From Desulfobulbaceae bacterium (GTDB lineage: Bacteria; Desulfobacterota; Desulfobulbia; Desulfobulbales; SURF-16), in the NCBI GenBank assembly GCA_023230525.1, contig JALNXE010000003.1, positions 7,037 to 71,036 of the forward strand: DNA of 64,000 bases, written 5' to 3'. Positions 12,253 to 36,880 of the stretch are shown here, one piece after another (within the stretch, counting starts at the first letter, position 1; every line of letters begins with the position of its first letter). The notes under the pieces are model-generated. The model saw only the letters and a list, made by a program, of their open reading frames with translations, was not told where the DNA came from and searched no databases. The translations under genes were made by a program, and so were the position numbers.

Positions 12253-12254
12253 CC

Positions 12255-17295: not shown

Positions 17296-17316
17296 GATAA
17301 GCAATTAGGAAGCGGG

Positions 17317-17853: not shown

Positions 17854-17855
17854 GA

Positions 17856-18716: not shown

Positions 18717-18725
18717 CAGGATAGA

Positions 18726-19763
<1,038 letters not shown>

Positions 19764-20038: not shown

Positions 20039-20068
20039 TTGACAGTCATTAATCATTAAGATTATAAG
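20039..20068 (+). promoter_or_regulatory. Sigma-70 promoter for tRNA-Ala
   Basis: TTGACA (20039-20044), a 17-18-nt spacer, then TTATAA/TATAAG. It lies about 25 nt upstream of the tRNA 5' end. Confidence 0.55.
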
Positions 20069-20093
20069 TGGTCGAAAATTTCGACCGCTGTGT

Positions 20094-20169
<76 letters not shown>

Positions 20170-20304
20170 AGATTTGTTGAGTCACTTCTGATGAGGGAGT
20201 CGCAAAATACATAATATTCATTGATGCGGGACGAACCGCCGGATAACAAGTTGTAAGGATCTTTAATCGGGGAGGGCCTAGAAGTTTTTCCTTATATTAA
20301 AGAT

Positions 20305-20359
20305 AGCCTCTGTCGGTACTCAAGAATTGGCCTTCTTTTACACCGCAGAGGCTTTTTTG
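20305..20359 (+). terminator. Long-stem rho-independent terminator downstream of tRNA-Ala
   Basis: AGCCTCTG(T)CGGT ... ACCGCAGAGGCT (12 bp with one bulge) is followed by TTTTTTGTTT. Confidence 0.55.
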
Positions 20360-20405
20360 TTTATTGTGATGTTAAATCGGCAACCTATCCTTACGGAGTT
20401 TTCCC

Positions 20406-20597
20406 ATGTCATCAGGCAAAAATCAGGGTGACGAGCACGACAAGGCGGTGTTCAAGTCGATAACCGATGAGGCGATTCTCAAGGTCACCAAGGAAATAGT
20501 CGTTAAGTTCATCGAGTGCGGCCGGCTTTCCCCTGCAAATTTTGACGAGACTTTTGAGCAGGTTTATAAGAAGGTTGTGAGCACGGTCCGGACATGA
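20406..20597 (+). CDS. Hypothetical 63-aa protein, translationally coupled to mpl
   Basis: Its stop overlaps the mpl start (ATGA at 20594-20597). Weak RBS ACGGAG. I recognise no family. Confidence 0.4.
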   Translation: MSSGKNQGDEHDKAVFKSITDEAILKVTKEIVVKFIECGRLSPANFDETFEQVYKKVVSTVRT

Positions 20598-22066
20598 CGC
20601 ATCCTGAAGAGGTGGCAATGCTTGATGCCTCTCTCAATATTTTTCCTGACTCCCCTCGACATATTCACCTCATGGGGGTGTGTGGCACTGGTATGGCCGC
20701 CATGGCGGGTATGCTGAAGAATCAGGGCTACAACGTCTCCGGTTCAGACAGCCATGTTTATCCACCCATGAGTGATTTTCTGGCCCGTACCGGCATTCCA
20801 ATTCTTGAGGGGTACAGGGCAGAAAATCTCGATCCCCGCCCTGATCTGGTTGTCGTCGGCAATGTGATTACCCGTAAAAATCCTGAAGCGATTGCCCTGG
20901 CAAAACTCCGCATTCCCTATCTGTCCTTTCCCCAGCTGCTCAGCTATAAGTTTCTCGCCGCTAAAAAATCTCTGGTAGTTGCCGGCACCCATGGCAAAAC
21001 CACCACGTCCTCCATGCTGGCTACCATGCTTTATGGCGCCGGATTTGAGCCGGGCTTTATGATCGGCGGCATTGTCCAGGCCTTTGGCCGCAATTTCCGC
21101 GTTGGGGATGGCCCCTACTTTGTGGTTGAGGGTGATGAATACGATACGGCCTTTTTTGACAAGGGCCCGAAATTTCTTCATTACCGCCCCTGGATCGCCA
21201 TTATTACCAGTATTGAATTTGATCATGCCGACATTTATGCGGATCTTGCGGCGGTAAAAAACTCTTTCCGCAGATTGATTGCCATGATGCCGGCAGATGG
21301 CTGCCTGGTGGCCCATCTTGATGATCCGGTGGTGCGGGAGCTTGTTGCCGAAGCTCCCTGCCCTGTGGTGGGCTACGGCCAGCTGTCTGCCAATGACTGG
21401 TGTCTGGCGCAGGTCAGTTGTTCCAGGAGCGGGAGCTCGTTTGTGGCCCTGCACCACGGCAAGCCCTTTGGCTCGTTCACCACGGTCATGCCCGGCAGGC
21501 ACAACTGCTTGAACGGCCTGGCCGTTATAGCGGTGCTGGAACGGCTGGGGCTGGCCCCTGATGTCATCTCCCGTGAGCTGCAGCTCTTTAAGGGCGTAAG
21601 GCGGCGCCAGGAGGTGCGTGGGGTAGTCGGGGGGGTGACCGTCATCGATGATTTCGCCCATCACCCGACGGCGGTGCGGGAGACACTCGCCGCCCTCAGG
21701 GCCGCCTATGAGGGGCAGCGCCTGCTGGCAGTATTTGAGCCGCGCACCAATTCCAGCAGGAGGCGGGTTTTTCAGCAGGATTATCTGGGCGTCTTTGATG
21801 CTGCCGATGTGGTGGTGGTCAAGGAGCCGGATATTCTGGCAACAGTTCCGGAAGAGCAGCGCTTTTCCGCCAAAGAACTGGTCGCCGGCCTGCAGGAGAG
21901 GGGGGTGGACGGCTATTACTTTCCCAACACCGACCTGATTCTCGATTACCTTTCAGATATCATCCATCCGGACGATGTCGTGGCCATATTGTCCAATGGC
22001 GGATTTGACAATATTCATATGCGCCTGTTGCACAGGCTTGCGCAGCTTTTTCCCCCGAACAAATAA
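20594..22066 (+). CDS. mpl: UDP-N-acetylmuramate:L-alanyl-gamma-D-glutamyl-meso-diaminopimelate ligase
   Basis: HLMGVCGTGMAAMAGML, GTHGKTTTSSM, DDFAHHPTA. This is a Mur-ligase fold with an Mpl-type N-terminus. Confidence 0.85.
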   Translation: MTHPEEVAMLDASLNIFPDSPRHIHLMGVCGTGMAAMAGMLKNQGYNVSGSDSHVYPPMSDFLARTGIPILEGYRAENLDPRPDLVVVGNVITRKNPEAIALAKLRIPYLSFPQLLSYKFLAAKKSLVVAGTHGKTTTSSMLATMLYGAGFEPGFMIGGIVQAFGRNFRVGDGPYFVVEGDEYDTAFFDKGPKFLHYRPWIAIITSIEFDHADIYADLAAVKNSFRRLIAMMPADGCLVAHLDDPVVRELVAEAPCPVVGYGQLSANDWCLAQVSCSRSGSSFVALHHGKPFGSFTTVMPGRHNCLNGLAVIAVLERLGLAPDVISRELQLFKGVRRRQEVRGVVGGVTVIDDFAHHPTAVRETLAALRAAYEGQRLLAVFEPRTNSSRRRVFQQDYLGVFDAADVVVVKEPDILATVPEEQRFSAKELVAGLQERGVDGYYFPNTDLILDYLSDIIHPDDVVAILSNGGFDNIHMRLLHRLAQLFPPNK

Positions 22067-22455: not shown

Positions 22456-22857
22456 GTGGAACAACAAGCTCTCCTTGATCTTCTCTATATTGCCGCTTTT
22501 ACACTTTGCGGTCTCGCCTTTGGCTTCGGCCCCCTTCTCATTGTTTATCTCTTTTCACCGCGAGGAACCAGGCAAATAGTCAACAAGACAAGGATCCCCA
22601 TCGAGTGCGGTATGTTGACCATTGGTCCTGCCTGGATTCGCTATGGAATTCTTTATTATCTTTATGCCTTGATGTTTCTGGCCTTTGATGTTGATGTACT
22701 GTTTCTTTTCCCGGTGGCCGCTGTTTATAACGAATTTCCGGGTTTTCGGGGCTTTGTCGAGGTCGTTTTATTTGTCGCGATTCTTTCGCTGGCGATTGTT
22801 TATGCATGGAAAAAGGGAGTGTTCAAGTGGGAACGGAAAGTATACCAACAGCAGTAG
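22456..22857 (+). CDS. nuoA: Complex I subunit A
   Basis: GTG start with RBS AAGGAG. 133 aa with 3 TM helices. Contains the YECG-type motif IECGM. Confidence 0.85.
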
Positions 22858-23363
22858 AGAGTGTTATCCCCCCGGCATTACTGCAGTTTCATCAATTAGA
22901 TAAACTGCGCATGCTGGCCAGGGCAAACTCATTATGGCCCATGACCTTCGGCTTGGCCTGCTGCGCCATCGAAATGCTGTCAAGCGGTTGTGCCCGTTTT
23001 GACCTGTCGCGTTTCGGGGCGGAGGTTTTCCGGCCGTCACCACGCCAAAGTGATGTGATGATCGTTGCCGGGACAATCAATAAAAAGATGTTGCCCGCCG
23101 TTAAAATTCTCTATGACCAGATGCCGGAACCCAAATGGGTTATTGCCATGGGAAACTGTGCAATTTCCGGTGGTCCTTTTGCCTATCCGGGCCAATATAA
23201 TGTAGTTGAAGGGGCGGATACCTTTCTGCCGGTTGATGTCTATATTCCCGGCTGTCCCCCGCGTCCCGAGGCCCTCATTGAGGGATTGCTGGAACTTGAG
23301 GAAAAGATTACCGGTAATCGGCGCTGGCCGCGGGTTAAACCGGAAACAATGGTCAAGGGTTAA
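22806..23363 (+). CDS. nuoB: Complex I subunit B (N2 cluster)
   Basis: [38 protein letters not shown]. The start is uncertain; the ORF overlaps the nuoA 3' end. Confidence 0.9.
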
Positions 23364-23444
23364 GCCAGACCGGCATTTACCACTCACAAGTCTGTTTTTT
23401 TATTGTTACAGCCGATTTTGTGAGTCCACCTTCATGGTAACGTT

Positions 23445-24005
23445 ATGGATCGAGCTAAAATAAAAAGAGAACTGGAAAATTTGGCTGCTGCAGGTCTTCC
23501 TGCTGAGCCACCGCAGGAAAAGGCGCCGGTGGAAGTCCAAGCTGAAGGAGCGGGTGAGGACAAGGCAAAGGCCAAGGCCAAGAAAGAAGAGGATGTCCCG
23601 CGCAAAAACGGCCTGATCGAAACGGAATATGCTAAACGTGGCACTCATCTTGATGTCCAGATCAACCCGGATCAGGTGGTCAAAGCGGCAGAAATTCTTG
23701 ATGGCGAAGGAATGACCCTGGAGATGGTGACCGGCGTTGACTGGCTCAAGGAAAAGCAGTTCGAGGTCATCTATGATTATTCCTATTCCGGCGGTCAGTT
23801 GTTCCGAGTGGTGGTGCGAGCCAGGGTTGACCGGGACCATCCGGACATTCCCACTGTTTGCCGTGTGTACGGCGGCGCGAACTGGCATGAGCGGGAAACC
23901 TGGGAAATGCTGGGCATCAATTTTGTCGGCCATCCGCAGCTTGAACACTTCCTGCTGCCGGAAGATGCTGATTTCTATCCATTACGTAAGGATTTCAAGC
24001 CATGA
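23445..24005 (+). CDS. nuoC: Complex I subunit C with a roughly 50-aa K/A/E-rich N-terminal extension
   Basis: NWHERETWEMLGINFVGHP. The N-terminus contains EKAPVEVQAEGAGEDKAKAKAKKEED. Confidence 0.85.
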   Translation: MDRAKIKRELENLAAAGLPAEPPQEKAPVEVQAEGAGEDKAKAKAKKEEDVPRKNGLIETEYAKRGTHLDVQINPDQVVKAAEILDGEGMTLEMVTGVDWLKEKQFEVIYDYSYSGGQLFRVVVRARVDRDHPDIPTVCRVYGGANWHERETWEMLGINFVGHPQLEHFLLPEDADFYPLRKDFKP

Positions 24006-25120
24006 GTTCATTAGCCCAAAGCCAGTTGCGTGAGACCTTTGAGCTGAATATAGGTCCACAGCATCCTGCCACCCACGGCGTACTGCGCATCAAGGTCGTC
24101 ATGGATGGTGAATATATCGATCGGGCCGAGCCAATCCTTGGCTATATTCACCGCATGCATGAGAAGATGGGTGAAAATAGAACCTGGAACCAATTCTGGC
24201 CCAATATGGGCCGTCTCGATTATCTGTCCGCCATGGCCTACAACCATTGCTATGCCGGTCTTGTCGAGCGGGCCATGGAGATTGTGGTGCCAGAGCGGGC
24301 CGAGTACATTCGCGTCATTACCGCGGAATTGAACCGAATCCAAAGCCATCTTCTGGGCTTCGGGGCCTATATCATGGATCTCGGCGGATTTACCCCGCTG
24401 ATGTACGCCATGGATGAGCGCGAGCAGATCCTTGACCTGCTGGAGTCGGTCACCGGCTCCCGCCTCACCTACTGTTATTTCCGCTTTGGTGGTGTTTATA
24501 ACGATATCGATGACGACTTCATCACCGGAACACGGGCCTTCATCAAGCGGTTTCGTCCGCAGATACCCATGTATCATAAACTGGTTACCGGCAACGCCAT
24601 CCTGATGGACCGACTTATTGGTGTCGGCCCTGTTTCCGCTGACATGTGCCGGAAATACGGGGCAACCGGACCGGTTCTGCGGGGCTCAGGCGTAAATTAT
24701 GATATTCGCAGAAATGAACCTTACAGCGTCTACCCAGAATTGGATTTTGATATCCCGGTGTATAAAGAATGCGATTCCATGGCCCGCTACATGGTGAGAA
24801 TGGATGAGATGGTGCAGTCCTGCCGGATCATCGAACAAGCCTTGAATAAACTGCCGGAAGGACCGGTGATGGCCGAGAAGGTTCCCAAGGCCCTGAAACC
24901 GCCCAAAGGCGATTTCCATTATGCGGTAGAAGCTGCCCGCGGCACATTTTCCATGAGGGCAGTCAGTGATGGCACCAATACCGCTTACCGCATGCGGTTG
25001 CGGTCACCGACCTATTCCAATGTCAGTCTGTTCGAGGAGGCAAGCCGCGGTATGCTGCTGTCCGACGCCCTGGCGTTTTTGGGAAGCCTTGATCCCGTTA
25101 TACCCGAGATGGACCGGTAA
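24002..25120 (+). CDS. nuoD: Complex I subunit D
   Basis: NIGPQHPATHGVLRI, GYIHRMHEKMGE. ATGA overlap with nuoC. Confidence 0.9.
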   Translation: MSSLAQSQLRETFELNIGPQHPATHGVLRIKVVMDGEYIDRAEPILGYIHRMHEKMGENRTWNQFWPNMGRLDYLSAMAYNHCYAGLVERAMEIVVPERAEYIRVITAELNRIQSHLLGFGAYIMDLGGFTPLMYAMDEREQILDLLESVTGSRLTYCYFRFGGVYNDIDDDFITGTRAFIKRFRPQIPMYHKLVTGNAILMDRLIGVGPVSADMCRKYGATGPVLRGSGVNYDIRRNEPYSVYPELDFDIPVYKECDSMARYMVRMDEMVQSCRIIEQALNKLPEGPVMAEKVPKALKPPKGDFHYAVEAARGTFSMRAVSDGTNTAYRMRLRSPTYSNVSLFEEASRGMLLSDALAFLGSLDPVIPEMDR

Positions 25121-25132
25121 GGAGCAAGCACG

Positions 25133-26116
25133 ATGAATGAACTAATAAGATTACTCGCTTACATGCTGGGCCTGGCTGCCTTTCTTGGTCTGAATCTTGC
25201 CTATCTTGGCTGGGTTGAAAGGAAGGGTGCCGGTCATTTTCAGCGGCGGACCGGGCCCAAGGATGTTGGCCCCTATGGTCTGCTGCAGCCCCTTGCCGAC
25301 GGTCTCAAGCTGATGTCCAAGCAGCTGGTGGTTCCGGCCAATGCGGACCGAGCACTCTATATGTGTGCCCCGATTCTCATCATGGTTCCCGCCGTCCTGC
25401 TGTTTGTGGCGATCCCCTTCGGTGAGCATCTGGTGCCCCGTGAATTTAATTTCGGCTTGCTCATGATGTTCGCCTTTGCCTCGGTGGGTGGGTTGTCTAT
25501 CCTGATCGGCGGCTGGGGTTCCGGAAACAAATATTCACTCATCGCCGGCGCCAGGGCGGTTTCCCAGAATGTTGCTTACGAAATACCCATGCTGATCACG
25601 GCCATCAATATCGTGATGATCACCGGATCCATGGATCTGAACGAAATTGTCCGCCAGCAGGGTGCCTATATCTGGAACTGGAATATATTCCGGCTGGATA
25701 AATCCTTGCTGATGCCCATTTCCTTCCTGGTTTTCTTTATCTGTTCCCTGGCGGAAACCAATCGTACCCCCTTTGATATGGGAGAGTGCGAAGGCGAGCT
25801 GGTTGCCGGTTATCATACTGAATACGGCGGCATGGGTTTCGGTCTTTTCATGATGGCTGAGTATGCCAACCTTGTTATCGGCTGCAGTCTCACCACCATC
25901 CTCTTTCTCGGGGGGTGGCAGTCGCCCATAGGAATATTCCCCGGACCGCACTGGTTTCTGCTCAAGATGTATTTTCTCATCTGGTGTTTTGTCTGGATTC
26001 GCTGGACCTATCCTCGTACGACATTCTGGGGATTGCTCAATCTTTCCTGGAAATATCTCATACCGTTTTCATTGGTTAACTTGTTGCTAACAGCCTTATT
26101 TATAAAGGTATTTTGA
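25133..26116 (+). CDS. nuoH: Complex I subunit H
   Basis: GWGSGNKYSLIAGARA, AETNRTPFDMGECEGELVAGYHTEYGG. It starts 12 nt after the nuoD stop, so there is no room for nuoEFG. Confidence 0.9.
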   Translation: MNELIRLLAYMLGLAAFLGLNLAYLGWVERKGAGHFQRRTGPKDVGPYGLLQPLADGLKLMSKQLVVPANADRALYMCAPILIMVPAVLLFVAIPFGEHLVPREFNFGLLMMFAFASVGGLSILIGGWGSGNKYSLIAGARAVSQNVAYEIPMLITAINIVMITGSMDLNEIVRQQGAYIWNWNIFRLDKSLLMPISFLVFFICSLAETNRTPFDMGECEGELVAGYHTEYGGMGFGLFMMAEYANLVIGCSLTTILFLGGWQSPIGIFPGPHWFLLKMYFLIWCFVWIRWTYPRTTFWGLLNLSWKYLIPFSLVNLLLTALFIKVF

Positions 26117-26724
26117 TTATGTCCGGATACTTTAAAGATATCATCACAGGATTGAAGAGTCTCGCCGTCGGGCTGCAGATTACCAATAAAGAGTTTCTGA
26201 CGAAACCCATCACTCTCCTGTATCCCCATGAGTCGGTAAAAATGTACCCCCGTTATCGGGGCCACATCGAACTGGTCAAGGATCCCGAGACCGGCAGGAA
26301 TCGCTGCATTTGCTGCGGTATGTGTGAGAAGGGCTGCCCTTCCGGCTGTATTACCGTGAAATCCGAAAAACGGCCGGGGGTAAAGGGCAAGGTCTTGACT
26401 GCCTATATCCTTAATTTTACGACCTGCAGCCTGTGCGGGCAGTGTGTTGAGAACTGTAAGCCAGAGGCCATCAAGTTTTCCAATGAATACAACTTGGCCA
26501 GCACCAGGCGGGAGGATTACATTTTTGATCTGCTGCAAAAGCTTCATCCGGAAGGTGTGCCGGAACCCGAGGTTGATCCTGAATTATTGAAGAAAGAACA
26601 AGAAAAAGAAGAAGCTGCAAAGAAAGCTGCTGCAGAAAAGAAAGCTGCTGCGGCAAAGAAAGAAGCCGCCCCGAAAGCACCTGCTAAGGAAGGCGGGGAA
26701 TCAAAAGCAGAGGAAAAAAGCTGA
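26113..26724 (+). CDS. nuoI: Complex I subunit I (2x[4Fe-4S]) with a K/A/E-rich C-terminal tail
   Basis: CICCGMCEKGCP and CSLCGQCVENCK. The tail is KKEQEKEEAAKKAAAEKKAAAAKKEAAPKAPAKEGGESKAEEKS. Confidence 0.9.
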   Translation: MIMSGYFKDIITGLKSLAVGLQITNKEFLTKPITLLYPHESVKMYPRYRGHIELVKDPETGRNRCICCGMCEKGCPSGCITVKSEKRPGVKGKVLTAYILNFTTCSLCGQCVENCKPEAIKFSNEYNLASTRREDYIFDLLQKLHPEGVPEPEVDPELLKKEQEKEEAAKKAAAEKKAAAAKKEAAPKAPAKEGGESKAEEKS

Positions 26725-27254
26725 TGAATCCTTCACTCTTTTCACCCGAAGGTTTAGCCGGAGTTATTTTCCTGATCCTAATTTGCGTCACAATGATCGG
26801 GGCGATAATTGCAACGTGTACAAAAAGATTGATCAGAAGCGTCAGCGGACTTGCAGTGTGCTTCGTGGGAGTTGCCGGGCTTTATTATTTCCTGAGCAGT
26901 CCTTTTGTCGCCATGATGGAGCTCCTCATTTATGTAGGCGCGGTTTGTGTCACCATTGCCTTTGCCATCATGCTTGCCGAGCCGGATGAGGCCAAAATGG
27001 CCAGAAAGTTGAGCGGATTAAGCGGCGGGCTTGCCGCGGTTTGTGGCGGTGCCGTTTCATTTGCCCTTGGTTATGCAGCTGTCAACGGCCACTGGATGGC
27101 CCCTGCAGTCCAAGCCAATGACGGCTCTTTAAAGATGATAGGCCAATCCCTGCTGACCAAGTACAGCATGGTTTTTGAACTCATCTCCATTGTACTTCTG
27201 GTTGCCATCATTGGCTCCGTGGCTCTTGCCCGTGCCGGAAGGAGGGGTAATTAA
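26724..27254 (+). CDS. nuoJ: Complex I subunit J
   Basis: 176 aa, about 5 TM helices, in the position between nuoI and nuoK. Contains MELLIYVGAV. Confidence 0.8.
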   Translation: MNPSLFSPEGLAGVIFLILICVTMIGAIIATCTKRLIRSVSGLAVCFVGVAGLYYFLSSPFVAMMELLIYVGAVCVTIAFAIMLAEPDEAKMARKLSGLSGGLAAVCGGAVSFALGYAAVNGHWMAPAVQANDGSLKMIGQSLLTKYSMVFELISIVLLVAIIGSVALARAGRRGN

Positions 27255-27256
27255 GG

Positions 27257-27577
27257 ATGTTAACTCTCAGCACACAACTCAATACGTATCTTGTCATCGG
27301 CGCAGTACTTTTTGGCTTCGGCATTTTCGGTCTGGTACGTAGGCCAAGTCTCATCGGAATGTTGATAGCCGTGGAGCTCGTTTTAAGCGGCGCCTCCATC
27401 AACTTTATGGCCTTTAACCGTTTTCTTGCTCCTGATCCCACGGTGGGGCAAATCATAACCTTGTTTATCATGGCCATAGCCGCTGCCGAGGCAGCCATAT
27501 CGTTGAGCATAGTTATCGCTGTTTATCGGAATTACAAGTCCATTGAAGTTGAAGACCTGGTAGAACTTAAAGGATAG
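27257..27577 (+). CDS. nuoK: Complex I subunit K
   Basis: 106 aa, 3 TM helices. Conserved Glu-containing helices (IAVELVLSG, AAAEAAI). Confidence 0.85.
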   Translation: MLTLSTQLNTYLVIGAVLFGFGIFGLVRRPSLIGMLIAVELVLSGASINFMAFNRFLAPDPTVGQIITLFIMAIAAAEAAISLSIVIAVYRNYKSIEVEDLVELKG

Positions 27578-27591
27578 CATTGAGGATTATC

Positions 27592-29091
27592 ATGGAAACC
27601 GTCAGCGCCGCCACCGGCGATATCGTAACCACAAGTAGATTAGTATGGGCTTTGCTTGTCCCATTGTTTGGCTCTTTCCTTGTATCATTGTCAGGGAAAA
27701 AGCCGAATGTGAGGGAGAGCTTCTCTATCGTATCTGCCGTTATACTTTTTTCAATGGTCTTATCAATGGTGTCCCCGGTTCTTGCCGGGAAAACCTTTTA
27801 TTATCAGCTTTTTAAAATACTGCCTGGGGTCACGGTCACCCTGCGGGCTGACGCCTTTTCCATGATTTTCGCGCTGGTCGCCTCTTCACTGTGGGTTGCT
27901 GCCGCGTTCTATTCCATGGGCTATATGCGGGGACTGCATGAACATGCACAAACCCGCTTCAACACCTGTTTTGCCATAGCGATATTCGGTGCCATAGGCG
28001 TTGCCTTTTCTGACAATCTCTTCACCATGTATCTCTTCTATGAGATCGTCAGTGTCTGCACCTACCCGCTGGTTGCCCATCATCAGGATGAAGAGGGCTA
28101 TGAGGGTGCCAAGAAATATATCGTTTATCTGACCACGACGGCTAAAGCCTTTCTGCTGCCCTCCCTGGCGCTGATCTATGTAATGACCGGCTCGCTTGAT
28201 TTCCCCTATAACATTCATACCGGCATGTTTCCGGCTGATGCCAACTCAGCCTTGGTGACCATGCTGTTTATTTTCTGCCTCTTCGGTTTTGCCAAGAACG
28301 GCGTGATGCCGTTCCATCACTGGCTGCCGGGCGCAATGGTTGCGCCTACCCCGGTCAGTGCCCTCCTCCATGCCGTGGCCGTTGTCAAGGTTGGTGTCTT
28401 CTGCACCACCCGGATGATGCTGTATGGTTTTGGGGTGGATCTGATGAGTCTGCTGAACCTGGGAATACCCACTGCCTATTTTGTCGGTTTCACCATCGTC
28501 ATGGCATCCGTCCTCGCATTGACCAAAGACAATCTGAAAGCCCGGCTGGCCTATTCCACCGTCAGCCAGCTTTCTTATATCATTCTTGGGGTGTGTCTGC
28601 TCACTCCTCATGGCATTACCGGCGGACTTATTCATATTGCCAACCACGCCTTTTCCAAGATCACCCTCTTCTTCTGTGCCGGTGCCATCTATGTCGCCAC
28701 CCATAAAAAGAATATTTCCGAAATGGGCGGGCTGGCCAGGACCATGCCCTTTACCTTCGGCGCCTTTGCCGTGGCAACTCTCAGTATGATCGGTGCCCCG
28801 CCGGTTGCAGGCTTTGTTACCAAATGGGAGCTGCTGATCGGCACCATCGAGTCAGGATCATTCGGGATTATTCTTATACTGCTTGCCAGTACGCTGCTCA
28901 ACGTCGGTTATTTTGCCCCGGTTACCTATAAGGCCTTTTTCGGTAAACGACCGGCAGGAGAGGTATATGAGGGGATCAAAGAGGCGCCCCTGAGTATGGT
29001 CATCCCGCTCTGTACGGCGTCTCTTATTTCAGTCATTATTGGTATCTATCCGAATTTTTTCATGAATCTTGTTAAGGCGGTGATAGGATGA
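27592..29091 (+). CDS. Additional antiporter-like subunit (NuoL/MrpA/MrpD family) lacking a lateral-helix C-terminus
   Basis: MYLFYEIVS (TM5 Glu), FHHWLPGAMVAPTPVSALLHAVAVVKVGVF, IANHAFSKITLF. About 499 aa. RBS GAGGA lies before the ATG at 27592; the track ORF starts at a TTG at 27580. Confidence 0.8.
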   Translation: METVSAATGDIVTTSRLVWALLVPLFGSFLVSLSGKKPNVRESFSIVSAVILFSMVLSMVSPVLAGKTFYYQLFKILPGVTVTLRADAFSMIFALVASSLWVAAAFYSMGYMRGLHEHAQTRFNTCFAIAIFGAIGVAFSDNLFTMYLFYEIVSVCTYPLVAHHQDEEGYEGAKKYIVYLTTTAKAFLLPSLALIYVMTGSLDFPYNIHTGMFPADANSALVTMLFIFCLFGFAKNGVMPFHHWLPGAMVAPTPVSALLHAVAVVKVGVFCTTRMMLYGFGVDLMSLLNLGIPTAYFVGFTIVMASVLALTKDNLKARLAYSTVSQLSYIILGVCLLTPHGITGGLIHIANHAFSKITLFFCAGAIYVATHKKNISEMGGLARTMPFTFGAFAVATLSMIGAPPVAGFVTKWELLIGTIESGSFGIILILLASTLLNVGYFAPVTYKAFFGKRPAGEVYEGIKEAPLSMVIPLCTASLISVIIGIYPNFFMNLVKAVIG

Positions 29092-29336
29092 TTAGCTTGA
29101 TTGAATTCTTCCGCGAACGCCTGAAGATCGTTATTGTTGCCTGTCTGGTATTGATAGGCGTGATAGCTCTTTGGGGATCATTTATGATCGATTTGAGCCA
29201 TGCTCATACGAAAATGGAAAAAATTCCTTTTTTCTGGAGTTTCTTTGGACTGATCGGTGGCGCATTGCTCATTCTCGTGTCCAGGTTTTTTGGACGTCTG
29301 GGAATCATGACCCGTGAGGATTATTACGATGAATAA
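29088..29336 (+). CDS. 82-aa two-helix membrane protein of unknown family embedded in the nuo operon
   Basis: ATGA overlap with the upstream gene and an 8-nt overlap with the downstream gene. Hydrophobic segments are IVIVACLVLIGVIALWGSF and FFWSFFGLIGGALLILV. Confidence 0.6.
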   Translation: MISLIEFFRERLKIVIVACLVLIGVIALWGSFMIDLSHAHTKMEKIPFFWSFFGLIGGALLILVSRFFGRLGIMTREDYYDE

Positions 29337-31107
29337 TTTCTGGTTGCATCCTGCACTTATCCTTATCATCGGCGGACTCGTTCTGCCGTTTATTAAAGGG
29401 CCAATCAGGAAACCCTACCTTCTCCTTGTGCCGGTACTGACTTTTTTGAATGTACTGGCAATGAATAAGGGTGTCCATGGCGTGGTTCAATTCATTGACT
29501 GGCAGTTGATTTTTGGTCGGGTTGACAGTTTGAGCCAGATTTTTGGCTATATCATGTCGCTCATGTGTATTATCGGGACCTTGTTTGCCTTGAATGTTGA
29601 AGAGGACACGCAGCATATTGCCGCCTGGTTTTATGTGGCCGGGTCCCTTGGGGTTATATTCTGCGGTGACTATGTTGTTCTTTTCCTCTTCTGGGAACTC
29701 ATGGCCTTTGCCTCTGTTTTTCTTGTCTGGTTCCGGCGCGGACCCCAGTCTCTTGCCACCGGTTACCGTTATTTATTAATTCATACTCTGGGCGGCCTCT
29801 TTCTGCTGGCCGGTTTTGTGCTTCGTTATTACAACACCGGCGGGGATCTTTCCTTTGGGCCGCTGGGCGTAGATACCCCTAATCTTTCCACCTATTTGAT
29901 CTTGCTTGGTTTTATTGTTAATGCAGCTGTTCCGCCTTTTCATTCCTGGCTGCAGGATGCCTATGCCGAGGCAAGTGTCGCTGGCGCCGTGTTCATGTGC
30001 GCCTTTACCACCAAAACCGCCATTTACGTTCTGGCCCGCGGTTTTGCCGGTATGGAGATTCTTATCGTCCTGGGGGCTGTCATGGCCCTGTATGGTGTTG
30101 TCTATGGTGTCATTGAAAACGACGGCAGGCGCATTTTCGCCTGGGATACGATAAGTCAGGTCGGCTATATGGTGTGCGGCGTAGGAATCGGCTCCGAACT
30201 GGCTATCAACGGCGCCTGCGCCCATGCCTTTGCCCATATCCTTTACAATGGCCTGTTGTTCATGGGTACCGGCTCGGTGCTTTACATGACCGGTACCTGT
30301 AAGCTGACGGAACTGGGCGGGCTCTATAAGAAAATGCCGCGCACCTTCTTCTTTACGCTTATCGGCGGATTGTCCATTGCCGGCTTTCCGCTGTTCAGCG
30401 GTTTTGTCAGCAAGTCGATGATCATCGCTGCTGGCTTGGAGCATCATCATTACTGGGCCGGCTTTTCGCTGCTGCTCGCAGCTGGCGGGACCTTTCTGCT
30501 GGCCGGCCTCAAGGTGCCCTACTATATCTGGTTCGGTAAAAACAACTGTTCCACTGAAGTATGGGAAAAAGCCGCAGATCCGCCCTGGAACATGCAGGCA
30601 GCCATGGCAATTGCTGCTGTCATGTGTGCCTTCATCGGCTGCTATACCCCTTATCTGTACCATATGCTGCCGTTTCCCGTGGAATACAATCCCTATACCG
30701 CTTACCATCTGTCAGAAACCTTTCAGATTATCGGTGGTACGGGAATTATGTTCTTTGTCCTGAAAAGGTTCATGGAGCCCACTGCCACCATCAGCCTGGA
30801 TCTCGACTGGTTCTACAGGATGGCCGGGCGAGGCTTTTTCTGGGTTGACACCCGGATTTTCCAGTTCATTGACACCAGCATCGGCGAAATTTATCGCTAT
30901 ATCGGTCTGTTCCCCTTGATGACCATTGCCCGTTTCTGGTCCTGGTTTGACTGGAATGCCATCGATGGTGTGGTGGACGGTACAGCCAGAACTGTCCGCT
31001 CCCTTGGAGGTGCGGTGCGAAAGGTTCAGGCAGGTAATATGCAATACAATATCTTCTTTGCTGCCTCGGTTGCTGCAGCGGCAGTGCTGGTCTTCGTCTT
31101 TGTTTGA
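29329..31107 (+). CDS. nuoL: Complex I subunit L-like protein (antiporter-like core plus NuoL-type C-terminal lateral helix and anchor)
   Basis: LFLFWELMAF, PFHSWLQDAYAEAS...TTKTAIY. The C-terminus WNAIDGVVDGTARTVRSLGGAVRKVQAGNMQYNIFFAASVAAAAVLVF resembles the NuoL/NdhF IDG.V.G...Q.G....Y motif. RBS GAGGA. Confidence 0.75.
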   Translation: MNNFWLHPALILIIGGLVLPFIKGPIRKPYLLLVPVLTFLNVLAMNKGVHGVVQFIDWQLIFGRVDSLSQIFGYIMSLMCIIGTLFALNVEEDTQHIAAWFYVAGSLGVIFCGDYVVLFLFWELMAFASVFLVWFRRGPQSLATGYRYLLIHTLGGLFLLAGFVLRYYNTGGDLSFGPLGVDTPNLSTYLILLGFIVNAAVPPFHSWLQDAYAEASVAGAVFMCAFTTKTAIYVLARGFAGMEILIVLGAVMALYGVVYGVIENDGRRIFAWDTISQVGYMVCGVGIGSELAINGACAHAFAHILYNGLLFMGTGSVLYMTGTCKLTELGGLYKKMPRTFFFTLIGGLSIAGFPLFSGFVSKSMIIAAGLEHHHYWAGFSLLLAAGGTFLLAGLKVPYYIWFGKNNCSTEVWEKAADPPWNMQAAMAIAAVMCAFIGCYTPYLYHMLPFPVEYNPYTAYHLSETFQIIGGTGIMFFVLKRFMEPTATISLDLDWFYRMAGRGFFWVDTRIFQFIDTSIGEIYRYIGLFPLMTIARFWSWFDWNAIDGVVDGTARTVRSLGGAVRKVQAGNMQYNIFFAASVAAAAVLVFVFV

Positions 31108-31159
31108 GGGATCGAACGGTAAACTCTCTCTGTAATATATTGAATAGAGGATAGTGGGA

Positions 31160-32665
31160 ATGGATTTTCTAATAATGAATGAAGGGTTTCCCCTTTTGAG
31201 CACCATCGTATTTCTCCCGTTGGCAGGCGCGCTTGTGCTGCTTTTACTGCCGGGTGAAAATGTGCAACGAATATGGGCAATGGCCGTCACCTCGGTTAAT
31301 GCTGTAATTTCCCTCCCGCTCTATTCCCGGTTTGATGCAACCACAGCCAAGTATCAGTTCGGGGAGCATGTAAGCTGGATACCATCGTTAAATATCAATT
31401 ATACCCTTGGTATTGACGGCATCAGCCTGCTGCTGGTATTACTGACGACCCTGATTATGCCCTTATGCGTTCTCGGCTCCTGGACATATATTAAGACGAG
31501 AATCAAGGAGTTCATGATCTGTCTGCTGATCATGGAAACGGCCATGCTCGGTGTGTTCATGGCCCTTGACTTCGTGCTTTTCTATATTCTCTGGGAAGCC
31601 ATGCTGATCCCGATGTATCTGCTCATCGGCGTCTGGGGCGGACCGCGAAAGATCTATGCATCCATCAAGTTCTTTCTCTATACCCTGGCAGGTTCGGTCA
31701 TGCTTCTTGTCGCCATTATCGCCCTCTACCTCAAGAACGGTTCCTTCAGTATTCCCATGATGATGGGTCAGGATTACAGCAGCACCTTTCAGATCTGGGT
31801 ATTTTTGGCATTCTTCCTGGCCTTTGCCATCAAGGTGCCCATGTTTCCCTTCCATACCTGGTTGCCCGCCGCCCATGTTGAGGCGCCTACCGCAGGCAGT
31901 GTGATCCTGGCCAGTATCCTGCTGAAGATGGGTACCTATGGTTTTCTGCGTTTCTGTCTGCCCATTACCCCTTTGGCAACCCTGACGCTTGGACCCTATG
32001 TTCTTTGGATGTCGGTGGTTGCCATTCTCTATGGCGGTTTTACCGCCCTGGCGCAGTCAGACATGAAGAAGCTGATCGCTTACTCCAGTGTGGGACATAT
32101 GGGTTTCGTCACCTTGGGTATTTTTTTCCTCAATAAACAGGGGTTGGAAGGGGCGATACTGCAGATGATTAATCATGGGGTCACCACCGGAGCACTCTTC
32201 CTCTGTGTTGGTATGATGTATGAAAGGACCCACAGCAGGGAGATAGCCGACCATTCGGGTATAGCCCAGAATCTGCCGATTTTTGTATCGTTTCTGACAA
32301 TTTTTTCGCTGTCATCCCTGGCCTTTCCGGCGACCAACAGTTTTGTCGGCGAATTTCTCGTGCTGGCCGGGGCGTTCAGTGGCAATAAGATTGTTGCCGG
32401 TGCCGCCATTCCTGGCGCCATCCTGGCGGCAGCTTACATGATGCGTCTGCTCCAGCATGTCCTGTTCAGAGGCCCCGGCAGGCCGGATCTGGCTGATCTG
32501 AATGTTCGGGAGATTGTTACTCTTGCTCCACTGCTGTGCTTTGTATTCTGGATCGGTCTGGCTCCGGAGCCATTTTTAAGTGTCATGCATACAAGTGTTG
32601 AATATTTGATACAGCAGGTTGATATAGCCAAAACGGCACAGATTGCTCTGAATATTGTGCCGTAG
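31160..32665 (+). CDS. nuoM: Complex I subunit M
   Basis: LFYILWEAMLIPMY, FPFHTWLPAAHVEAPTAGSVILASILLKMGTYG. The ATG is at 31160; the track ORF starts at a GTG at 31154. Confidence 0.9.
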   Translation: MDFLIMNEGFPLLSTIVFLPLAGALVLLLLPGENVQRIWAMAVTSVNAVISLPLYSRFDATTAKYQFGEHVSWIPSLNINYTLGIDGISLLLVLLTTLIMPLCVLGSWTYIKTRIKEFMICLLIMETAMLGVFMALDFVLFYILWEAMLIPMYLLIGVWGGPRKIYASIKFFLYTLAGSVMLLVAIIALYLKNGSFSIPMMMGQDYSSTFQIWVFLAFFLAFAIKVPMFPFHTWLPAAHVEAPTAGSVILASILLKMGTYGFLRFCLPITPLATLTLGPYVLWMSVVAILYGGFTALAQSDMKKLIAYSSVGHMGFVTLGIFFLNKQGLEGAILQMINHGVTTGALFLCVGMMYERTHSREIADHSGIAQNLPIFVSFLTIFSLSSLAFPATNSFVGEFLVLAGAFSGNKIVAGAAIPGAILAAAYMMRLLQHVLFRGPGRPDLADLNVREIVTLAPLLCFVFWIGLAPEPFLSVMHTSVEYLIQQVDIAKTAQIALNIVP

Positions 32666-32744
32666 TAACTGTTGAGGCGACGTTGGTGATTTGACCGCGT
32701 AGTAAATTATTAAGGCAAGCGATTTTACAGTATAAGGATTACAC

Positions 32745-34160
32745 ATGTTGTTCGCACCAGAGTTATTAATGCTGATTGGAAGTCTGGTTCTCTTCTGTCT
32801 CAGTCTCGGGCAGAGGAAAGGAAATCTTGCGAAATATGCGTCGCTGGTGCTGGGCATTGCTTCATGTATTTTGAGCCTTGCCACCCTGCAGATGAGCGGC
32901 AATCTGTTTTACGATGCCTATCATGTTGATATGTTTTCGCAACTCTTTAAGCTGGCCATCTCCATCGGTCTGGTCATTGTCCTGCTTTTCAGCGGTGATT
33001 TGAAAGGTGTGGATGATAATTTGCGGCCCGAATATTTTCTCTTTATGATTCTCAGCACCCTGGGACTCATGATGCTGGTCAGCAGTGTAGAGCTGCTCTC
33101 GCTCTTTATTGCCCTGGAGCTTTCATCCTATTCGCTTTACCTTATGGTGCCGATGCGTGATGATCATGGCGGCATAAAGATGCAGATGGAAGCGGCGATC
33201 AAATACATCCTTTTCGGTGTTGTTGCCACCGGCACCATGCTTTACGGCATGAGCTTTATTTTCGGCATGACCGGCACTACCTACTTCAGTGAACTGGTTC
33301 CCAGGATGCATGAGCTGGCTACCACACCAACTGCCATGCTGGCTATTGCCCTGTTCATGTCGGGTTTCTTCTATAAGCTGGCAGTTTTCCCTTTTCACTT
33401 CTGGGTACCAGACGTCTACCAGGGCGCTTCCAATGCCACAACAGCCTTCATTGCCTCCGTGCCAAAACTCGGCGCAGTGGCTATTCTTATCCGCGTCACC
33501 ACACTGGTTGCCCCCACCGGCGGCGAGGCGGTAGTCAATATGCTCATGATTCTGGCCGTCTGTTCCATGTTTTATGGCAACCTGTCCGCTCTGGTGCAAA
33601 AAGATATCAAGCGTATGCTCGGTTTTTCCGGTATTTCCCATGCTGGTTTTGTCCTGCTAGGCCTGCTTACCTTGAAAGATACCGGTTACGCCACCTCCAT
33701 GTACTATATAGCCGGTTATGTTTTCATGAATCTGGCCTGCTTTCTGGTTATCTGCAAGGTTTCCAAGAATGGCGAAAACGTGAGTATCGATGATATGAGC
33801 GGTCTGTATAAACGGGCTCCGCTCCTTGCCTTGACCCTGCTGGTCGGTATGATGGCCCTGGCCGGAATCCCGCCTTTTGTCGGATTCATGGGTAAATTCA
33901 TGCTGCTTACCGGCGCTCTCCGGGACGGACATCTTGCCCTGGTTATTCTTGCGGCCCTGAATACCGCCATTGCTATTTATTACTATTTGTCCGTGGTTCG
34001 CGTTGCATTCTGCAGCCCACCTGAAGAAAGACCGGATGTGCCGGTGGATCTGGCGACACGATGTGTCAGTATTGCCTTAATTGCCGTCATCATCTTTATG
34101 GGTGTGGCTCCCAAGCAGCTGCTTGCTGTTGCCGAGACTGCGGTCCGCAACATTTTCTAA
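32745..34160 (+). CDS. nuoN: Complex I subunit N
   Basis: FIALELSSYSLY, FPFHFWVPDVYQGASNATTAFIASVPKLGA. Confidence 0.9.
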   Translation: MLFAPELLMLIGSLVLFCLSLGQRKGNLAKYASLVLGIASCILSLATLQMSGNLFYDAYHVDMFSQLFKLAISIGLVIVLLFSGDLKGVDDNLRPEYFLFMILSTLGLMMLVSSVELLSLFIALELSSYSLYLMVPMRDDHGGIKMQMEAAIKYILFGVVATGTMLYGMSFIFGMTGTTYFSELVPRMHELATTPTAMLAIALFMSGFFYKLAVFPFHFWVPDVYQGASNATTAFIASVPKLGAVAILIRVTTLVAPTGGEAVVNMLMILAVCSMFYGNLSALVQKDIKRMLGFSGISHAGFVLLGLLTLKDTGYATSMYYIAGYVFMNLACFLVICKVSKNGENVSIDDMSGLYKRAPLLALTLLVGMMALAGIPPFVGFMGKFMLLTGALRDGHLALVILAALNTAIAIYYYLSVVRVAFCSPPEERPDVPVDLATRCVSIALIAVIIFMGVAPKQLLAVAETAVRNIF

Positions 34161-34451: not shown

Positions 34452-34652
34452 ATAATGTATTGTGATTCCCGCGGGTTGCCGCCGGAACAATTCTTGTGCA
34501 CGGTTACTGGATGGTTCTTCCATAACAGTGCACCCCCGTGGTCCGAGCACCGAGAATGCAGGGTTTTATTTCTGTTTCTTTGCTGCCAATTGATGACCGG
34601 GTGTCGAAACCTTGAGACTGGATGGCCATTCCTGCAGCCATCTGAAGATAAA

Positions 34653-34675
34653 GTGGGCTCTGCCCGCTTTTTTTA
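34653..34675 (+). terminator. Short hairpin plus T7, about 200 nt downstream of tRNA-Gly
   Basis: GTGGGC-TCT-GCCCGC followed by TTTTTTT. Confidence 0.5.
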
Positions 34676-34707
34676 TTTTTGATATAGGCAGATTGGCGCG
34701 GTTTGGT

Positions 34708-35172
34708 ATGCCTCCACTGAAAGATCATATAGTTGAAGAAGTTCAACGGTTGATAGGGCCTGTTCTAGCAGAAAATTTTCTGGAACTGGTTGAGGTGCAA
34801 TTTCGTCAGGAGCCCATCGGTTGGGTGCTCAGGCTTATTATTTATAAACAGGGCGGGACGTCGGTGGATGATTGTGCGAAGGTAAGCCGGGAATTGAGCC
34901 ATATCCTGGATGTGGAGGATTTGATCCCGCAAAAGTACTTTCTGGAGGTCTCTTCACCAGGCCTTGATCGTCCCTTGAAGACAGAAAATGATTTTCGGCG
35001 AAACAAGGGAGAAAAGGTGAAGCTTACCGTTGAAACTGATGGCACACAGCTTACCCAAATAGGAATTATTCAGGATGTGCAGAACGGCATACTCTTATTG
35101 CAGAGCGATGCCGGTATCATGTCGTATCCTTTGAGCGGGATAAGTAAAGCAAGGCTCGAAATTGAATTTTAA
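34708..35172 (+). CDS. rimP: Ribosome maturation factor RimP
   Basis: 154 aa starting at MPPLKDHI. Contains EVSSPGLDRPL. Located directly upstream of nusA. Confidence 0.85.
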   Translation: MPPLKDHIVEEVQRLIGPVLAENFLELVEVQFRQEPIGWVLRLIIYKQGGTSVDDCAKVSRELSHILDVEDLIPQKYFLEVSSPGLDRPLKTENDFRRNKGEKVKLTVETDGTQLTQIGIIQDVQNGILLLQSDAGIMSYPLSGISKARLEIEF

Positions 35173-35250
35173 ACAAGCCTGTGCAGTTTTTAATATATTT
35201 TTGCCGGTTTCACCCGTTGTAAAAGCCTCTATGGGCTGAAATCGTGGAGA

Positions 35251-36555: not shown

Positions 36556-36558
36556 CCG

Positions 36559-36852: not shown

Positions 36853-36880
36853 AGCAGAAGGGAAGTTTCAGGAGCATATA

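What the first reader, a model, noticed from the sequence alone, without database searches (positions are those of the whole stretch)
22456..34160. Complex-I-type operon without nuoEFG but with a fourth antiporter-like subunit and an extra 82-aa membrane protein between nuoK and nuoL
Seen in sequence: the gene order is A-B-C-D-H-I-J-K-X-Y-L-M-N. Only 12 nt separate nuoD from nuoH, so no NADH-dehydrogenase module (E/F/G) is encoded here. X (27592-29091, about 499 aa) has the hallmarks of the NuoL/MrpA/MrpD family: a TM5 Glu in LFYEIVS, FHHWLPGAMVAPTPVSALLHA, and a Lys in VVKVGVF. It ends without a lateral helix. Y (82 aa, two hydrophobic helices) overlaps X by ATGA and overlaps L by 8 nt. L (about 592 aa) carries the NuoL/NdhF-type C-terminus (IDGVVDGTARTV...QAGNMQYN plus a final TM helix). 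X and L are preceded by the same TGAGGATTAT ribosome-binding context. Established knowledge: canonical complex I has three antiporter-like subunits (L, M, N). EFG-less 11-subunit versions occur in several anaerobes and phototrophs, and '2M' variants with a duplicated NuoM and a lengthened NuoL helix have been reported. Inference: this appears to be a different solution, an MrpD/L-like module plus a small adaptor protein inserted proximal to L. It would give four putative ion-translocating modules driven by an unknown electron donor such as ferredoxin. I cannot tell from the sequence alone whether this exact architecture has been described.
Basis: partly seen in the sequence, partly recalled or inferred. 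Interest (0 to 1): 0.7.

Follow-up and report, generated by a model that had tools for sequence, protein, structure and literature searches.

The report
Complex I with Mrp-derived distal pump cassette
This is a real, widely conserved 13-gene complex-I-like operon that lacks the NADH-oxidising module and has NuoL replaced by a three-gene cassette borrowed from Mrp antiporters; this membrane arm is already known from rhizobial 'green complex I', so it is a new member of a known kind.

Summary
The gene order is nuoA-B-C-D-H-I-J-K-X-Y-L-M-N, there is no nuoEFG, D and H are 12 nt apart, and X/Y and Y/L overlap by 4 and 8 nt. The same order is kept in all 80 related genomes examined (Desulfobulbales) and in Fundidesulfovibrio.

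The architecture is not a new solution. X, Y and L are orthologues (about 55-56%, 39% and 49% identity) of the K-X-hyp-L-M-N block of the Sinorhizobium meliloti pSymA nuo cluster. The literature calls that 'green complex I', in which two MrpD-like subunits replace NuoL.

'L' is not a NuoL. X and L each form their own clade, with outgroups from Mrp antiporter operons (mrpE-F-G-MbhD-MnhB-C-D-X-Y-L). So X-Y-L is an Mrp cassette grafted in place of nuoL.

X is a complete MrpA-N/NuoL-class module without a lateral helix. L carries a lateral helix of about 72 residues, which is normal length, but has Asn in place of the canonical TM7 Lys.

Y is a conserved two-helix protein with no Pfam family (691 clusters at 50% identity).

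In Desulfurivibrio dismutans proteomics, X and L were detected, and both show higher abundance on sulfur, as NuoD, H and M do.

The electron donor, subunit order and pumping stoichiometry remain unknown.

The parts
22456..22857 (+). nuoA (133 aa, GTG start)
   Evidence: Pfam Oxidored_q4, E 6e-26
22806..23363 (+). nuoB, with tandem-Cys N2 cluster motif GLACCAIEM
   Evidence: Pfam Oxidored_q6, E 8e-31; sequence read
23445..24005 (+). nuoC, with a Lys/Ala/Glu-rich N-terminal extension of about 55 aa
   Evidence: Pfam Complex1_30kDa; sequence read
24002..25120 (+). nuoD. Quinone-site His (GPQHPATHG) and Tyr (RLDY) are present; no NiFe ligand signature was looked for
   Evidence: Pfam Complex1_49kDa, E 1e-88; NCBIfam NuoD, 431 bits; sequence read
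25133..26116 (+). nuoH, 12 nt after nuoD, so there is no room for nuoEFG
   Evidence: Pfam NADHdh, E 1e-110; junction read
26113..26724 (+). nuoI (two CxxCxxCxxxCP motifs) with a Lys/Ala/Glu-rich C-terminal tail of about 60 aa
   Evidence: NCBIfam NuoI family models match below their cut-offs (TIGR01971, 105.6 bits against a cut-off of 113.05, E 1e-30); sequence read
26724..27254 (+). nuoJ
   Evidence: Pfam Oxidored_q3, E 4e-31
27257..27577 (+). nuoK
   Evidence: Pfam Oxidored_q2, E 5e-22
27592..29091 (+). X: antiporter-like subunit of the MrpA-N/NuoL class, 14 TM helices, no lateral helix. Key residues E151, K235, H260, K266, H348, H352, K356, K411
   Evidence: NCBIfam NF006236, 816 bits against a cut-off of 663; Proton_antipo_N plus Proton_antipo_M; key residues; seven of the eight key residues are invariant in 81 sequences, and H348 is Asn in one; about 55-56% identical to the S. 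meliloti pSymA orthologue
29088..29336 (+). Y: 82-aa two-TM protein with conserved motifs HAHT..E..P.FW and REDYYD. Its start overlaps the X stop codon (ATGA)
   Evidence: No Pfam family. No PDB relative. At least 4229 relatives at E <= 0.01 and 691 clusters at 50% identity, the 150 listed being small free-standing proteins. 39% identical to the S. meliloti hypothetical protein, E 7e-13. AF2 model has helices 2-10, 12-33 and 49-73
29329..31107 (+). L: Mrp-derived antiporter-like subunit carrying TM15, a lateral helix (492-563) and TM16. TM7 Lys is replaced by Asn198; E123, K229, H299, H303 and K362 are kept
   Evidence: NCBIfam NF009310, 717 bits against a cut-off of 564, while the NuoL models give about 140-145 bits, below their cut-offs. 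AF2 model. Foldseek matches MrpA, NuoL and NdhF over the full length. Key residues
31154..32665 (+). nuoM (TM12 Glu400)
   Evidence: TIGR01972, 601 bits
32745..34160 (+). nuoN
   Evidence: TIGR01770, 359 bits

Best explanation
The operon encodes a complex-I-like quinone oxidoreductase without the N-module. It has the Q-module NuoBCDI and the membrane subunits NuoH, A, J, K, N and M. The distal subunit NuoL has been replaced by a three-gene cassette taken from a three-antiporter-subunit Mrp cation/proton antiporter.

The cassette has three parts:
- X, an MrpA-N/NuoL-class proton module without a lateral helix.
- Y, a two-helix small subunit.
- L, a divergent antiporter-like subunit that supplies the lateral clamp helix and TM16.

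This is the same membrane-arm design as rhizobial 'green complex I'. Here it is combined with the ancestral 11-subunit arrangement that lacks EFG and keeps the canonical gene order.

Shown:
- The gene content, and its conservation.
- Orthology to the rhizobial cluster.
- The Mrp origin of X, Y and L.
- Intact channel residues in X.
- An intact quinone site and FeS motifs.
- Detection of the X and L proteins in a cultured relative, both more abundant on sulfur, as NuoD, H and M are.

Inferred:
- Electrons enter at NuoI/NuoB from a low-potential carrier such as ferredoxin, or from an unlinked module, and reduce menaquinone.
- Four antiporter-like subunits in series raise the H+/2e- ratio above the canonical 4. 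This also makes the reverse reaction, pmf-driven menaquinol to ferredoxin, feasible in autotrophic sulfur disproportionators and oxidisers.
- My preferred subunit order is N-M-X-L. This keeps the ancestral X-to-L junction (X TM12 Lys facing L TM5 Glu and TM7 Asn) and a canonical junction between NuoM and an L-class subunit. N-M-L-X is not excluded.
For: Gene identities.

Conservation:
- Identical order in 80 of 80 species-level loci, including cultured Desulfobulbus elongatus, Desulfogranum marinum and D. rhabdoformis.
- The same order in Fundidesulfovibrio terrae and in two further lineages reached through divergent Y proteins.

Orthology to rhizobia: S. meliloti pSymA has J-K-X(487)-hyp(84)-L(586)-M-N-A-B-C-D-E-F-G, with the same 4-nt and 8-nt overlaps. 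Identities are about 55-56%, 39% and 49%. The literature description is in PMC9040806 and PMC7415380.

Mrp origin:
- Operons MnhE-MrpF-MnhG-MbhD-MnhB-MrpC-D-X-Y-L.
- A Natronorubrum plasmid operon ending D-X'-L'.
- These Mrp versions branch outside the complex-I X and L subclades.

X class: Proton_antipo_N, and both His and Lys in TM8 as in MrpA (PMC7419157).

L lateral helix: 72 residues.

Q-module motifs.

Expression: in D. dismutans Table S1, X has log2FC 2.22 (p 0.002), L was detected only on sulfur, and NuoD, H and M have 2.2, 3.3 and 2.6. The authors report Nuo upregulated during sulfur disproportionation and NuoEFG absent from the cluster.
Against: - No physical evidence that X, Y and L sit in the same complex as NuoA-N in this lineage. 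Y, NuoA, J, K and N were not detected in the proteome.
- L lacks the TM7 Lys that is essential in canonical antiporter-like subunits, so it may not pump. The net gain in stoichiometry is therefore unproven.
- The lateral helix has about normal length. With the order N-M-X-L it would not reach the usual anchor next to NuoN/J/K.
- Helix-linker lengths in Mrp-type L proteins vary from 63 to 98 residues, so length arguments are weak.
- The electron donor is unknown. Unlinked nuoEFG homologues exist in D. dismutans and could not be searched for in this genome.
- The trees are neighbour-joining without support values.
Confidence: 0.75

Rival explanations
1. X plus L together merely substitute for one NuoL. 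X is the working pump. L is a degenerate module that is mainly structural and is kept for its lateral helix and TM16. The complex would then still translocate about 4 H+/2e-.
For: TM7 Lys is Asn in 71 of 71 L sequences, and also in the rhizobial L and two Mrp-type L proteins. X alone carries the complete NuoL/MrpA-type residue set. The lateral helix is not lengthened.
Against: L keeps TM5 Glu, TM8 Lys, two TM11 His and TM12 Lys, all invariant. That argues for a functional hydrophilic axis. One Mrp-type L (L094) still has the Lys, so Asn is a tolerated variant within a working family.
Confidence: 0.25
2. The Mrp-derived cassette gives the enzyme sodium coupling, either Na+ export or Na+/H+ exchange driven by redox energy. 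This would be useful in the haloalkaline and marine habitats of Desulfurivibrio and Desulfobulbales.
For: X, Y and L come from Mrp Na+/H+ antiporter operons. NCBIfam names L 'Na(+)/H(+) antiporter subunit D'. Close relatives include soda-lake isolates.
Against: In the solved Mrp structure, the large subunits are assigned to proton paths. The Na+ site is placed among the small subunits MrpA-C/B/C/F/G (PMC7419157), none of which is in this operon. The same cassette occurs in soil rhizobia. The family name is an annotation, not a test.
Confidence: 0.1
3. X, Y and L form a separate small antiporter that is only co-transcribed with an incomplete complex I.
For: The triad exists without redox subunits in Mrp operons.
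Against: In those Mrp operons the triad always comes with MrpC, D, E, F, G and MbhD/MnhB, which are absent here. No other subunit in the operon bears a lateral helix, so NuoM and NuoN would lack their clamp. The position between nuoK and nuoM is fixed in all loci and in rhizobia. Abundance of the detected Nuo subunits, X and L all changes in the same direction.
Confidence: 0.05

Closest known systems
[quoted passage not shown]
   Same: It has the same K-X-Y-L-M-N block. Identities are about 55-56% for X, 39% for Y and 49% for L, with the same 4-nt and 8-nt gene overlaps. L has the same Asn at TM7 and a TM15-TM16 linker of the same length.
   Different: The rhizobial cluster carries nuoEFG and is rearranged: J-K-X-Y-L-M-N-A-B-C-D-E-F-G, with H and I on the opposite strand. 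The window has no EFG and keeps the canonical order. The accounts of that literature I could read (the primary papers were not held) mention two MrpD-like subunits but not Y.
2M complex I (Chadwick et al. 2018, Nitrospira and others; as summarised in PMC9040806 and PMC7419157)
   Same: It is a complex I with four antiporter-like subunits, discussed as raising pumping capacity and helping reverse electron transport.
   Different: 2M adds a second NuoM and lengthens the NuoL lateral helix by about 26 residues. Here there is one NuoM, no NuoL, and a lateral helix of about 72 residues.
Complex_I_3 of Candidatus Manganitrophaceae (PMC9040806)
   Same: It uses the same pair of MrpD-like subunits in place of NuoL.
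   Different: It additionally has two NuoM and a 26-residue insertion in the lateral helix of the second MrpD-like subunit, giving five pumping subunits. None of this is seen here.
Mrp antiporters with split MrpA and three large subunits (operons in L088, L094 and the Natronorubrum plasmid L085)
   Same: The gene order C-D-X-(Y)-L is shared. The X and L clades and the Y motifs (H.H..E..P.F, EDYYD) are shared.
   Different: These operons have MrpE/F/G, MbhD and MnhB, and no NuoB/C/D/H/I. They are antiporters, not redox enzymes. The haloarchaeal example has no Y.
N-module-less 11-subunit complex I / NDH-1 (Chlorobi, cyanobacteria, many anaerobes; PMC4758237)
   Same: nuoEFG is absent. The order is A-B-C-D-H-I-J-K...M-N. 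The quinone-site His and Tyr and the N2 cysteines are present.
   Different: Those enzymes have a single NuoL/NdhF with three antiporter-like subunits in total.

Membership tests
Complex I / NDH-1 core (quinone-reducing, 11 conserved subunits) | Homologues of NuoA, B, C, D, H, I, J, K, M and N in one cluster | tested here: met
   Pfam and NCBIfam hits for each
Complex I / NDH-1 core (quinone-reducing, 11 conserved subunits) | NuoB cysteines for cluster N2, NuoI 2x[4Fe-4S] motifs, and NuoD quinone-site His and Tyr | tested here: met
   [12 protein letters not shown] and CPP in NuoB; two CxxCxxCxxxCP in NuoI; GPQHPATHG and RLDY in NuoD (read by eye)
Complex I / NDH-1 core (quinone-reducing, 11 conserved subunits) | A canonical NuoL/NdhF subunit | tested here: not met
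   X scores 212-224 bits and L 140-145 bits on the NuoL models, whose cut-offs are 407-556. Neither groups with E. coli NuoL
14-subunit NADH:quinone oxidoreductase | N-module NuoE, F, G | tested here: not met
   Absent from the operon and from the 27 larger flanking ORFs of the window that were scanned. The rest of the genome was not available
Green complex I (two MrpD-like subunits in place of NuoL) | Orthologues of both MrpD-like subunits between nuoK and nuoM | tested here: met
   About 55-56% and 49% identity to the S. meliloti pSymA proteins, with the same positions and overlaps
Green complex I (two MrpD-like subunits in place of NuoL) | Rearranged operon with nuoEFG, as in Rhizobium and Sinorhizobium | tested here: not met
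   The window has the canonical order and no EFG. pSymA has J-K-X-Y-L-M-N-A-B-C-D-E-F-G with H and I divergent
2M complex I | A second nuoM and a lateral-helix insertion of about 26 residues | tested here: not met
   Only one protein passes the NuoM models. The lateral helix is 72 residues, and the TM15-TM16 linker is 13-16 residues longer than in E. coli NuoL
Mrp cation/proton antiporter | MrpE, F, G, B (MnhB), MrpA-C (MbhD) and MrpC subunits | tested here: not met
   None is in the operon. They are present in the related operons L085, L088 and L094
Antiporter-like subunit (Proton_antipo_M) with a canonical proton path | TM5 Glu, TM7 Lys, TM8 Lys/His and TM12 Lys/Glu | tested here: inconclusive
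   X meets all four. L has Asn198 at TM7 but keeps the other three

The most novel reading that the evidence does not exclude
Y would be a so far unrecognised obligatory subunit of a whole class of X-L antiporter modules, shared by three-subunit Mrp antiporters and green-type complex I. The L-type subunit with Asn at TM7 would work by a non-canonical coupling step with the TM12 Lys of X. In Desulfobulbales, including Desulfurivibrio and relatives of cable bacteria, the resulting enzyme would be a ferredoxin:menaquinone oxidoreductase moving about 5 H+/2e-. It would run in reverse during autotrophic sulfur disproportionation or oxidation to make reduced ferredoxin.
Probability: 0.25. Interest if true: 0.55.

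Novelty: new member of a known kind. Interest (0 to 1): 0.38.

Why it matters
Sulfur-cycling Desulfobulbales live close to the thermodynamic limit, so the proton-to-electron ratio of their only complex-I-type enzyme shapes their energy budget. That ratio also decides whether they can push electrons uphill to ferredoxin for CO2 fixation.

The operon is routinely reported as an ordinary 11-subunit Nuo. The D. dismutans paper lists NuoAHJKLMN and NuoBCDI for a 13-gene cluster, so X and Y are being overlooked.

Three points are useful leads for structural and mutational work, best done in genetically tractable S. meliloti:
- The distal X-Y-L block is a portable Mrp cassette.
- The helix-bearing subunit lacks the canonical TM7 lysine.
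- A conserved small protein with no Pfam family always sits between the two large subunits.

The basic architecture is already in the literature.

Tried and rejected
[quoted passage not shown] I relied on citing papers.
- **Literature searches with no hits.** Desulfobulbaceae+nuo+MrpD, Chadwick+NuoL+MrpD+Deltaproteobacteria, and mrpD1/2/3.
- **Split NuoL.** X as the N-terminal half of a split NuoL is rejected. Both X and L have full Proton_antipo_M domains and complete key-residue sets apart from L-N198.
- **Y fused in haloarchaea.** I tested whether Y is fused to the C-terminus of the 664-aa haloarchaeal X'. It is not. The extra length is an acidic, His-rich loop before TM14.
- **Known relatives of Y.** Pfam at E up to 10 gave only noise, including two faint MbhD hits at E 0.48. 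A PDB profile search gave E >= 0.24.
- **Y fused elsewhere.** The 150 best representatives are all 55-201 aa, so no fusion to X or L was seen.
- **Subunit order from helix length.** This is inconclusive. Complex-I-type L linkers are uniform at 89-90 aligned residues, E. coli NuoL has 73, and Mrp-type L proteins range from 63 to 98.
- **Concatenated X-Y-L AlphaFold run.** I considered it and dropped it.

Full report
**Observation**

ORF listing and Pfam/NCBIfam scans confirm thirteen co-directional genes on the + strand.

| Gene | Coordinates |
|---|---|
| nuoA | 22456-22857 |
| nuoB | 22806-23363 |
| nuoC | 23445-24005 |
| nuoD | 24002-25120 |
| nuoH | 25133-26116 |
| nuoI | 26113-26724 |
| nuoJ | 26724-27254 |
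| nuoK | 27257-27577 |
| X | 27592-29091 |
| Y | 29088-29336 |
| L | 29329-31107 |
| nuoM | 31154-32665 |
| nuoN | 32745-34160 |

- nuoD and nuoH are 12 nt apart.
- X and Y share ATGA, and Y and L overlap by 8 nt.
- TGAGGATTAT precedes both X and L.
- The flanks are a Mur ligase gene upstream and rimP-nusA-infB downstream.
- The 27 larger flanking ORFs that were scanned against Pfam are housekeeping or regulatory genes. None has NuoE, F or G domains. About 15 ORFs, mostly at 39.8-63.9 kb, were not scanned.
- NuoB has the tandem-Cys N2 motif. NuoI has two 4Fe-4S motifs. NuoD has the quinone-site His and Tyr.

**Organism and conservation**

X is 100% identical to a protein of a Desulfobulbaceae MAG. 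It is 95-98% identical to proteins of Desulfurivibrio-like MAGs.

A scan of one genome per species found 442 stretches encoding X relatives. In all 80 loci kept, the order is A-B-C-D-H-I-J-K-X-Y-L-M-N as far as the contig reaches, without EFG. Three loci show small departures in the scripted gene call: one lacks a NuoI hit and two have adjacent overlapping genes listed in swapped order. The loci are Desulfobulbales and include Desulfobulbus elongatus DSM 2908, Desulfogranum marinum and D. rhabdoformis.

The X-stop/Y-start ATGA overlap is kept in nearly all of them. The same 13-gene operon occurs in Fundidesulfovibrio terrae. It also occurs in two further lineages reached through divergent Y proteins.

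**What X, Y and L are**

*X (499 aa)*
- It passes NCBIfam NF006236 and fails the NuoL, NuoM and NuoN models.
- It has a weak Proton_antipo_N hit.
- It has the complete residue chain E151, K235, H260+K266, H348, H352, K356, K411. Seven of these are invariant in 81 sequences, and H348 is Asn in one.
- Having both His and Lys on TM8 is the MrpA signature described in PMC7419157.
- It ends after TM14, so it has no lateral helix.

*L (592 aa)*
- It passes NF009310 ('Na+/H+ antiporter subunit D') and fails the NuoL models.
- Its AlphaFold2 model (pLDDT 78) has TM15 at 458-482, a lateral helix at 492-563 and TM16 at 571-591.
- Foldseek aligns it over its full length with MrpA, NuoL and NdhF.
- It keeps E123, K229, H299, H303 and K362.
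- The TM7 Lys is Asn198. This holds in 71 of 71 relatives, in S. meliloti and in two Mrp-type homologues.

*Y (82 aa)*
- It is predicted as a short N-terminal helix, two TM helices and a disordered tail carrying REDYYD.
- It has no Pfam family and no PDB relative.
- It has at least 4229 relatives at E <= 0.01, and every source name shown is 'hypothetical' or an evidently spurious automatic label.
- In the representative library it has 691 clusters at 50% identity. The 150 best hits listed are all free-standing proteins of 55-201 aa.

**Precedent**

A tblastn search of plasmids found X at 53-57% identity in Sinorhizobium and Rhizobium megaplasmids.

S. meliloti pSymA encodes J-K-X(487)-hypothetical(84)-L(586)-M-N-A-B-C-D-E-F-G, with H and I on the other strand. 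The 4-nt and 8-nt overlaps are the same as in the window. Y is 39% identical (E 7e-13) and L is 49% identical over the full length.

This cluster is the 'green complex I' of Degli Esposti and Martinez-Romero (PMC7415380). [quoted passage not shown] PMC7419157 also cites four-subunit complexes.

So the membrane-arm design is known. What differs here is the absence of EFG and the canonical gene order. The accounts I could read do not mention Y; the primary papers were not held.

**Origin**

Divergent Y proteins led to two operons of the form MnhE-MrpF-MnhG-MbhD-MnhB-MrpC-D-X-Y-L. A Natronorubrum plasmid has mrpE-F-G-DUF4040-MnhB-C-D1-X'-L'. There X' is 45% and L' 30% identical to the window proteins, and there is no Y.

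In neighbour-joining trees, X and L each form a clade separate from NuoL, M, N, Hyf and Bacillus-type MrpA and MrpD. The Mrp-operon versions branch outside the complex-I versions. The trees have no support values.

The parsimonious reading is that an Mrp X-Y-L cassette replaced nuoL.

**Expression**

In Desulfurivibrio dismutans, the authors describe a Nuo cluster RS03515-03575. That span is 13 genes, although they name only 11 subunits. They report it as lacking NuoEFG and as upregulated during sulfur disproportionation.

Their Table S1 compares sulfur with formate plus nitrate.

| Protein | Result |
|---|---|
| X (RS03555) | detected, log2FC 2.22, p 0.002 |
| L (RS03565) | detected only on sulfur |
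| NuoD | log2FC 2.22 |
| NuoH | log2FC 3.29 (p 0.075) |
| NuoM | log2FC 2.60 |
| Y, NuoA, J, K, N | not detected |

**Mechanism**

*Shown:* an intact Q-module and quinone site; a full MrpA-class proton path in X; a lateral-helix donor in L; and tight translational coupling.

*Inferred:*
- A low-potential donor such as ferredoxin, or an unlinked module, feeds NuoI and NuoB.
- Menaquinone is the acceptor.
- Four modules in series raise the H+/2e- ratio, or lower the pmf needed for reverse electron flow. From textbook potentials, MK to ferredoxin is about 0.75 eV per electron pair. That needs about 5 H+ at 150 mV.

*Subunit order is open.*
- The lateral helix has normal length (72 residues). The TM15-TM16 linker is 92-93 residues, against 80 in E. 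coli NuoL and 52 in Listeria MrpA.
- That length would fit N-M-L-X.
- The junction chemistry favours N-M-X-L: NuoM TM12 Glu would face an L-class Glu/Lys pair, and X TM12 Lys would face L Glu/Asn as in the Mrp ancestor.
- Linker lengths in Mrp-type L proteins vary from 63 to 98 residues, so length alone cannot decide.

**Verdict**

This is a new member of a known kind: an EFG-less representative of the green-type, Mrp-hybrid complex I.

Three details may be unreported. I could not check them against the primary papers:
- the conserved Y subunit;
- the Asn at TM7 of L;
- the shared cassette with three-subunit Mrp antiporters.

Noticed in passing
window 29311-29336 and 27581-27590: The Shine-Dalgarno sequence of L (GAGGA within TGAGGATTAT) lies inside the codons for Y's conserved C-terminal motif R-E-D-Y-Y. 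That motif is therefore under both protein-level and translation-initiation constraint. EDYYD is also kept in very divergent Mrp-type Y proteins.
   Followed up: partly
window 26113-26724 (NuoI residues ~145-203) and 23445-24005 (NuoC residues ~1-55): NuoI has a C-terminal tail of about 60 aa rich in Lys, Ala and Glu, and NuoC has a similar N-terminal extension. NuoI is 197-211 aa in ten close relatives but 145-147 aa in L087, L089 and L091. The tails are therefore lineage-specific. They sit where an electron donor would dock.
   Followed up: partly
window 4587-6347 (-): A 586-aa ORF has cytochrome c7/c3-type multihaem domains. It lies between the histidinol dehydrogenase and NAD synthase genes.
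   Followed up: no
L088 8772-8909: In one Mrp-type operon, an extra 45-aa hydrophobic ORF sits between X and Y.
   Followed up: no
L094 10272-11942: This Mrp-type L homologue keeps Lys at TM7 and has a TM15-TM16 linker about 26 residues shorter (63 against 89 aligned residues). All complex-I-type L proteins have Asn and a uniform linker.
   Followed up: partly
L085 8992-10986: The haloarchaeal X' protein (664 aa) carries an acidic, His-rich insertion of about 140 residues between TM13 and TM14.
   Followed up: no
window 11674-22066 and 34612-39754: The neighbourhood is shared with Desulfurivibrio dismutans (Table S1 order) and with more than 20 of the fetched loci. It runs HD-domain protein, RodA, PBP2, MreD-like, MreC, MreB, Mur ligase, nuo, then rimP-nusA-infB. 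This supports a vertically inherited chromosomal operon.
   Followed up: partly
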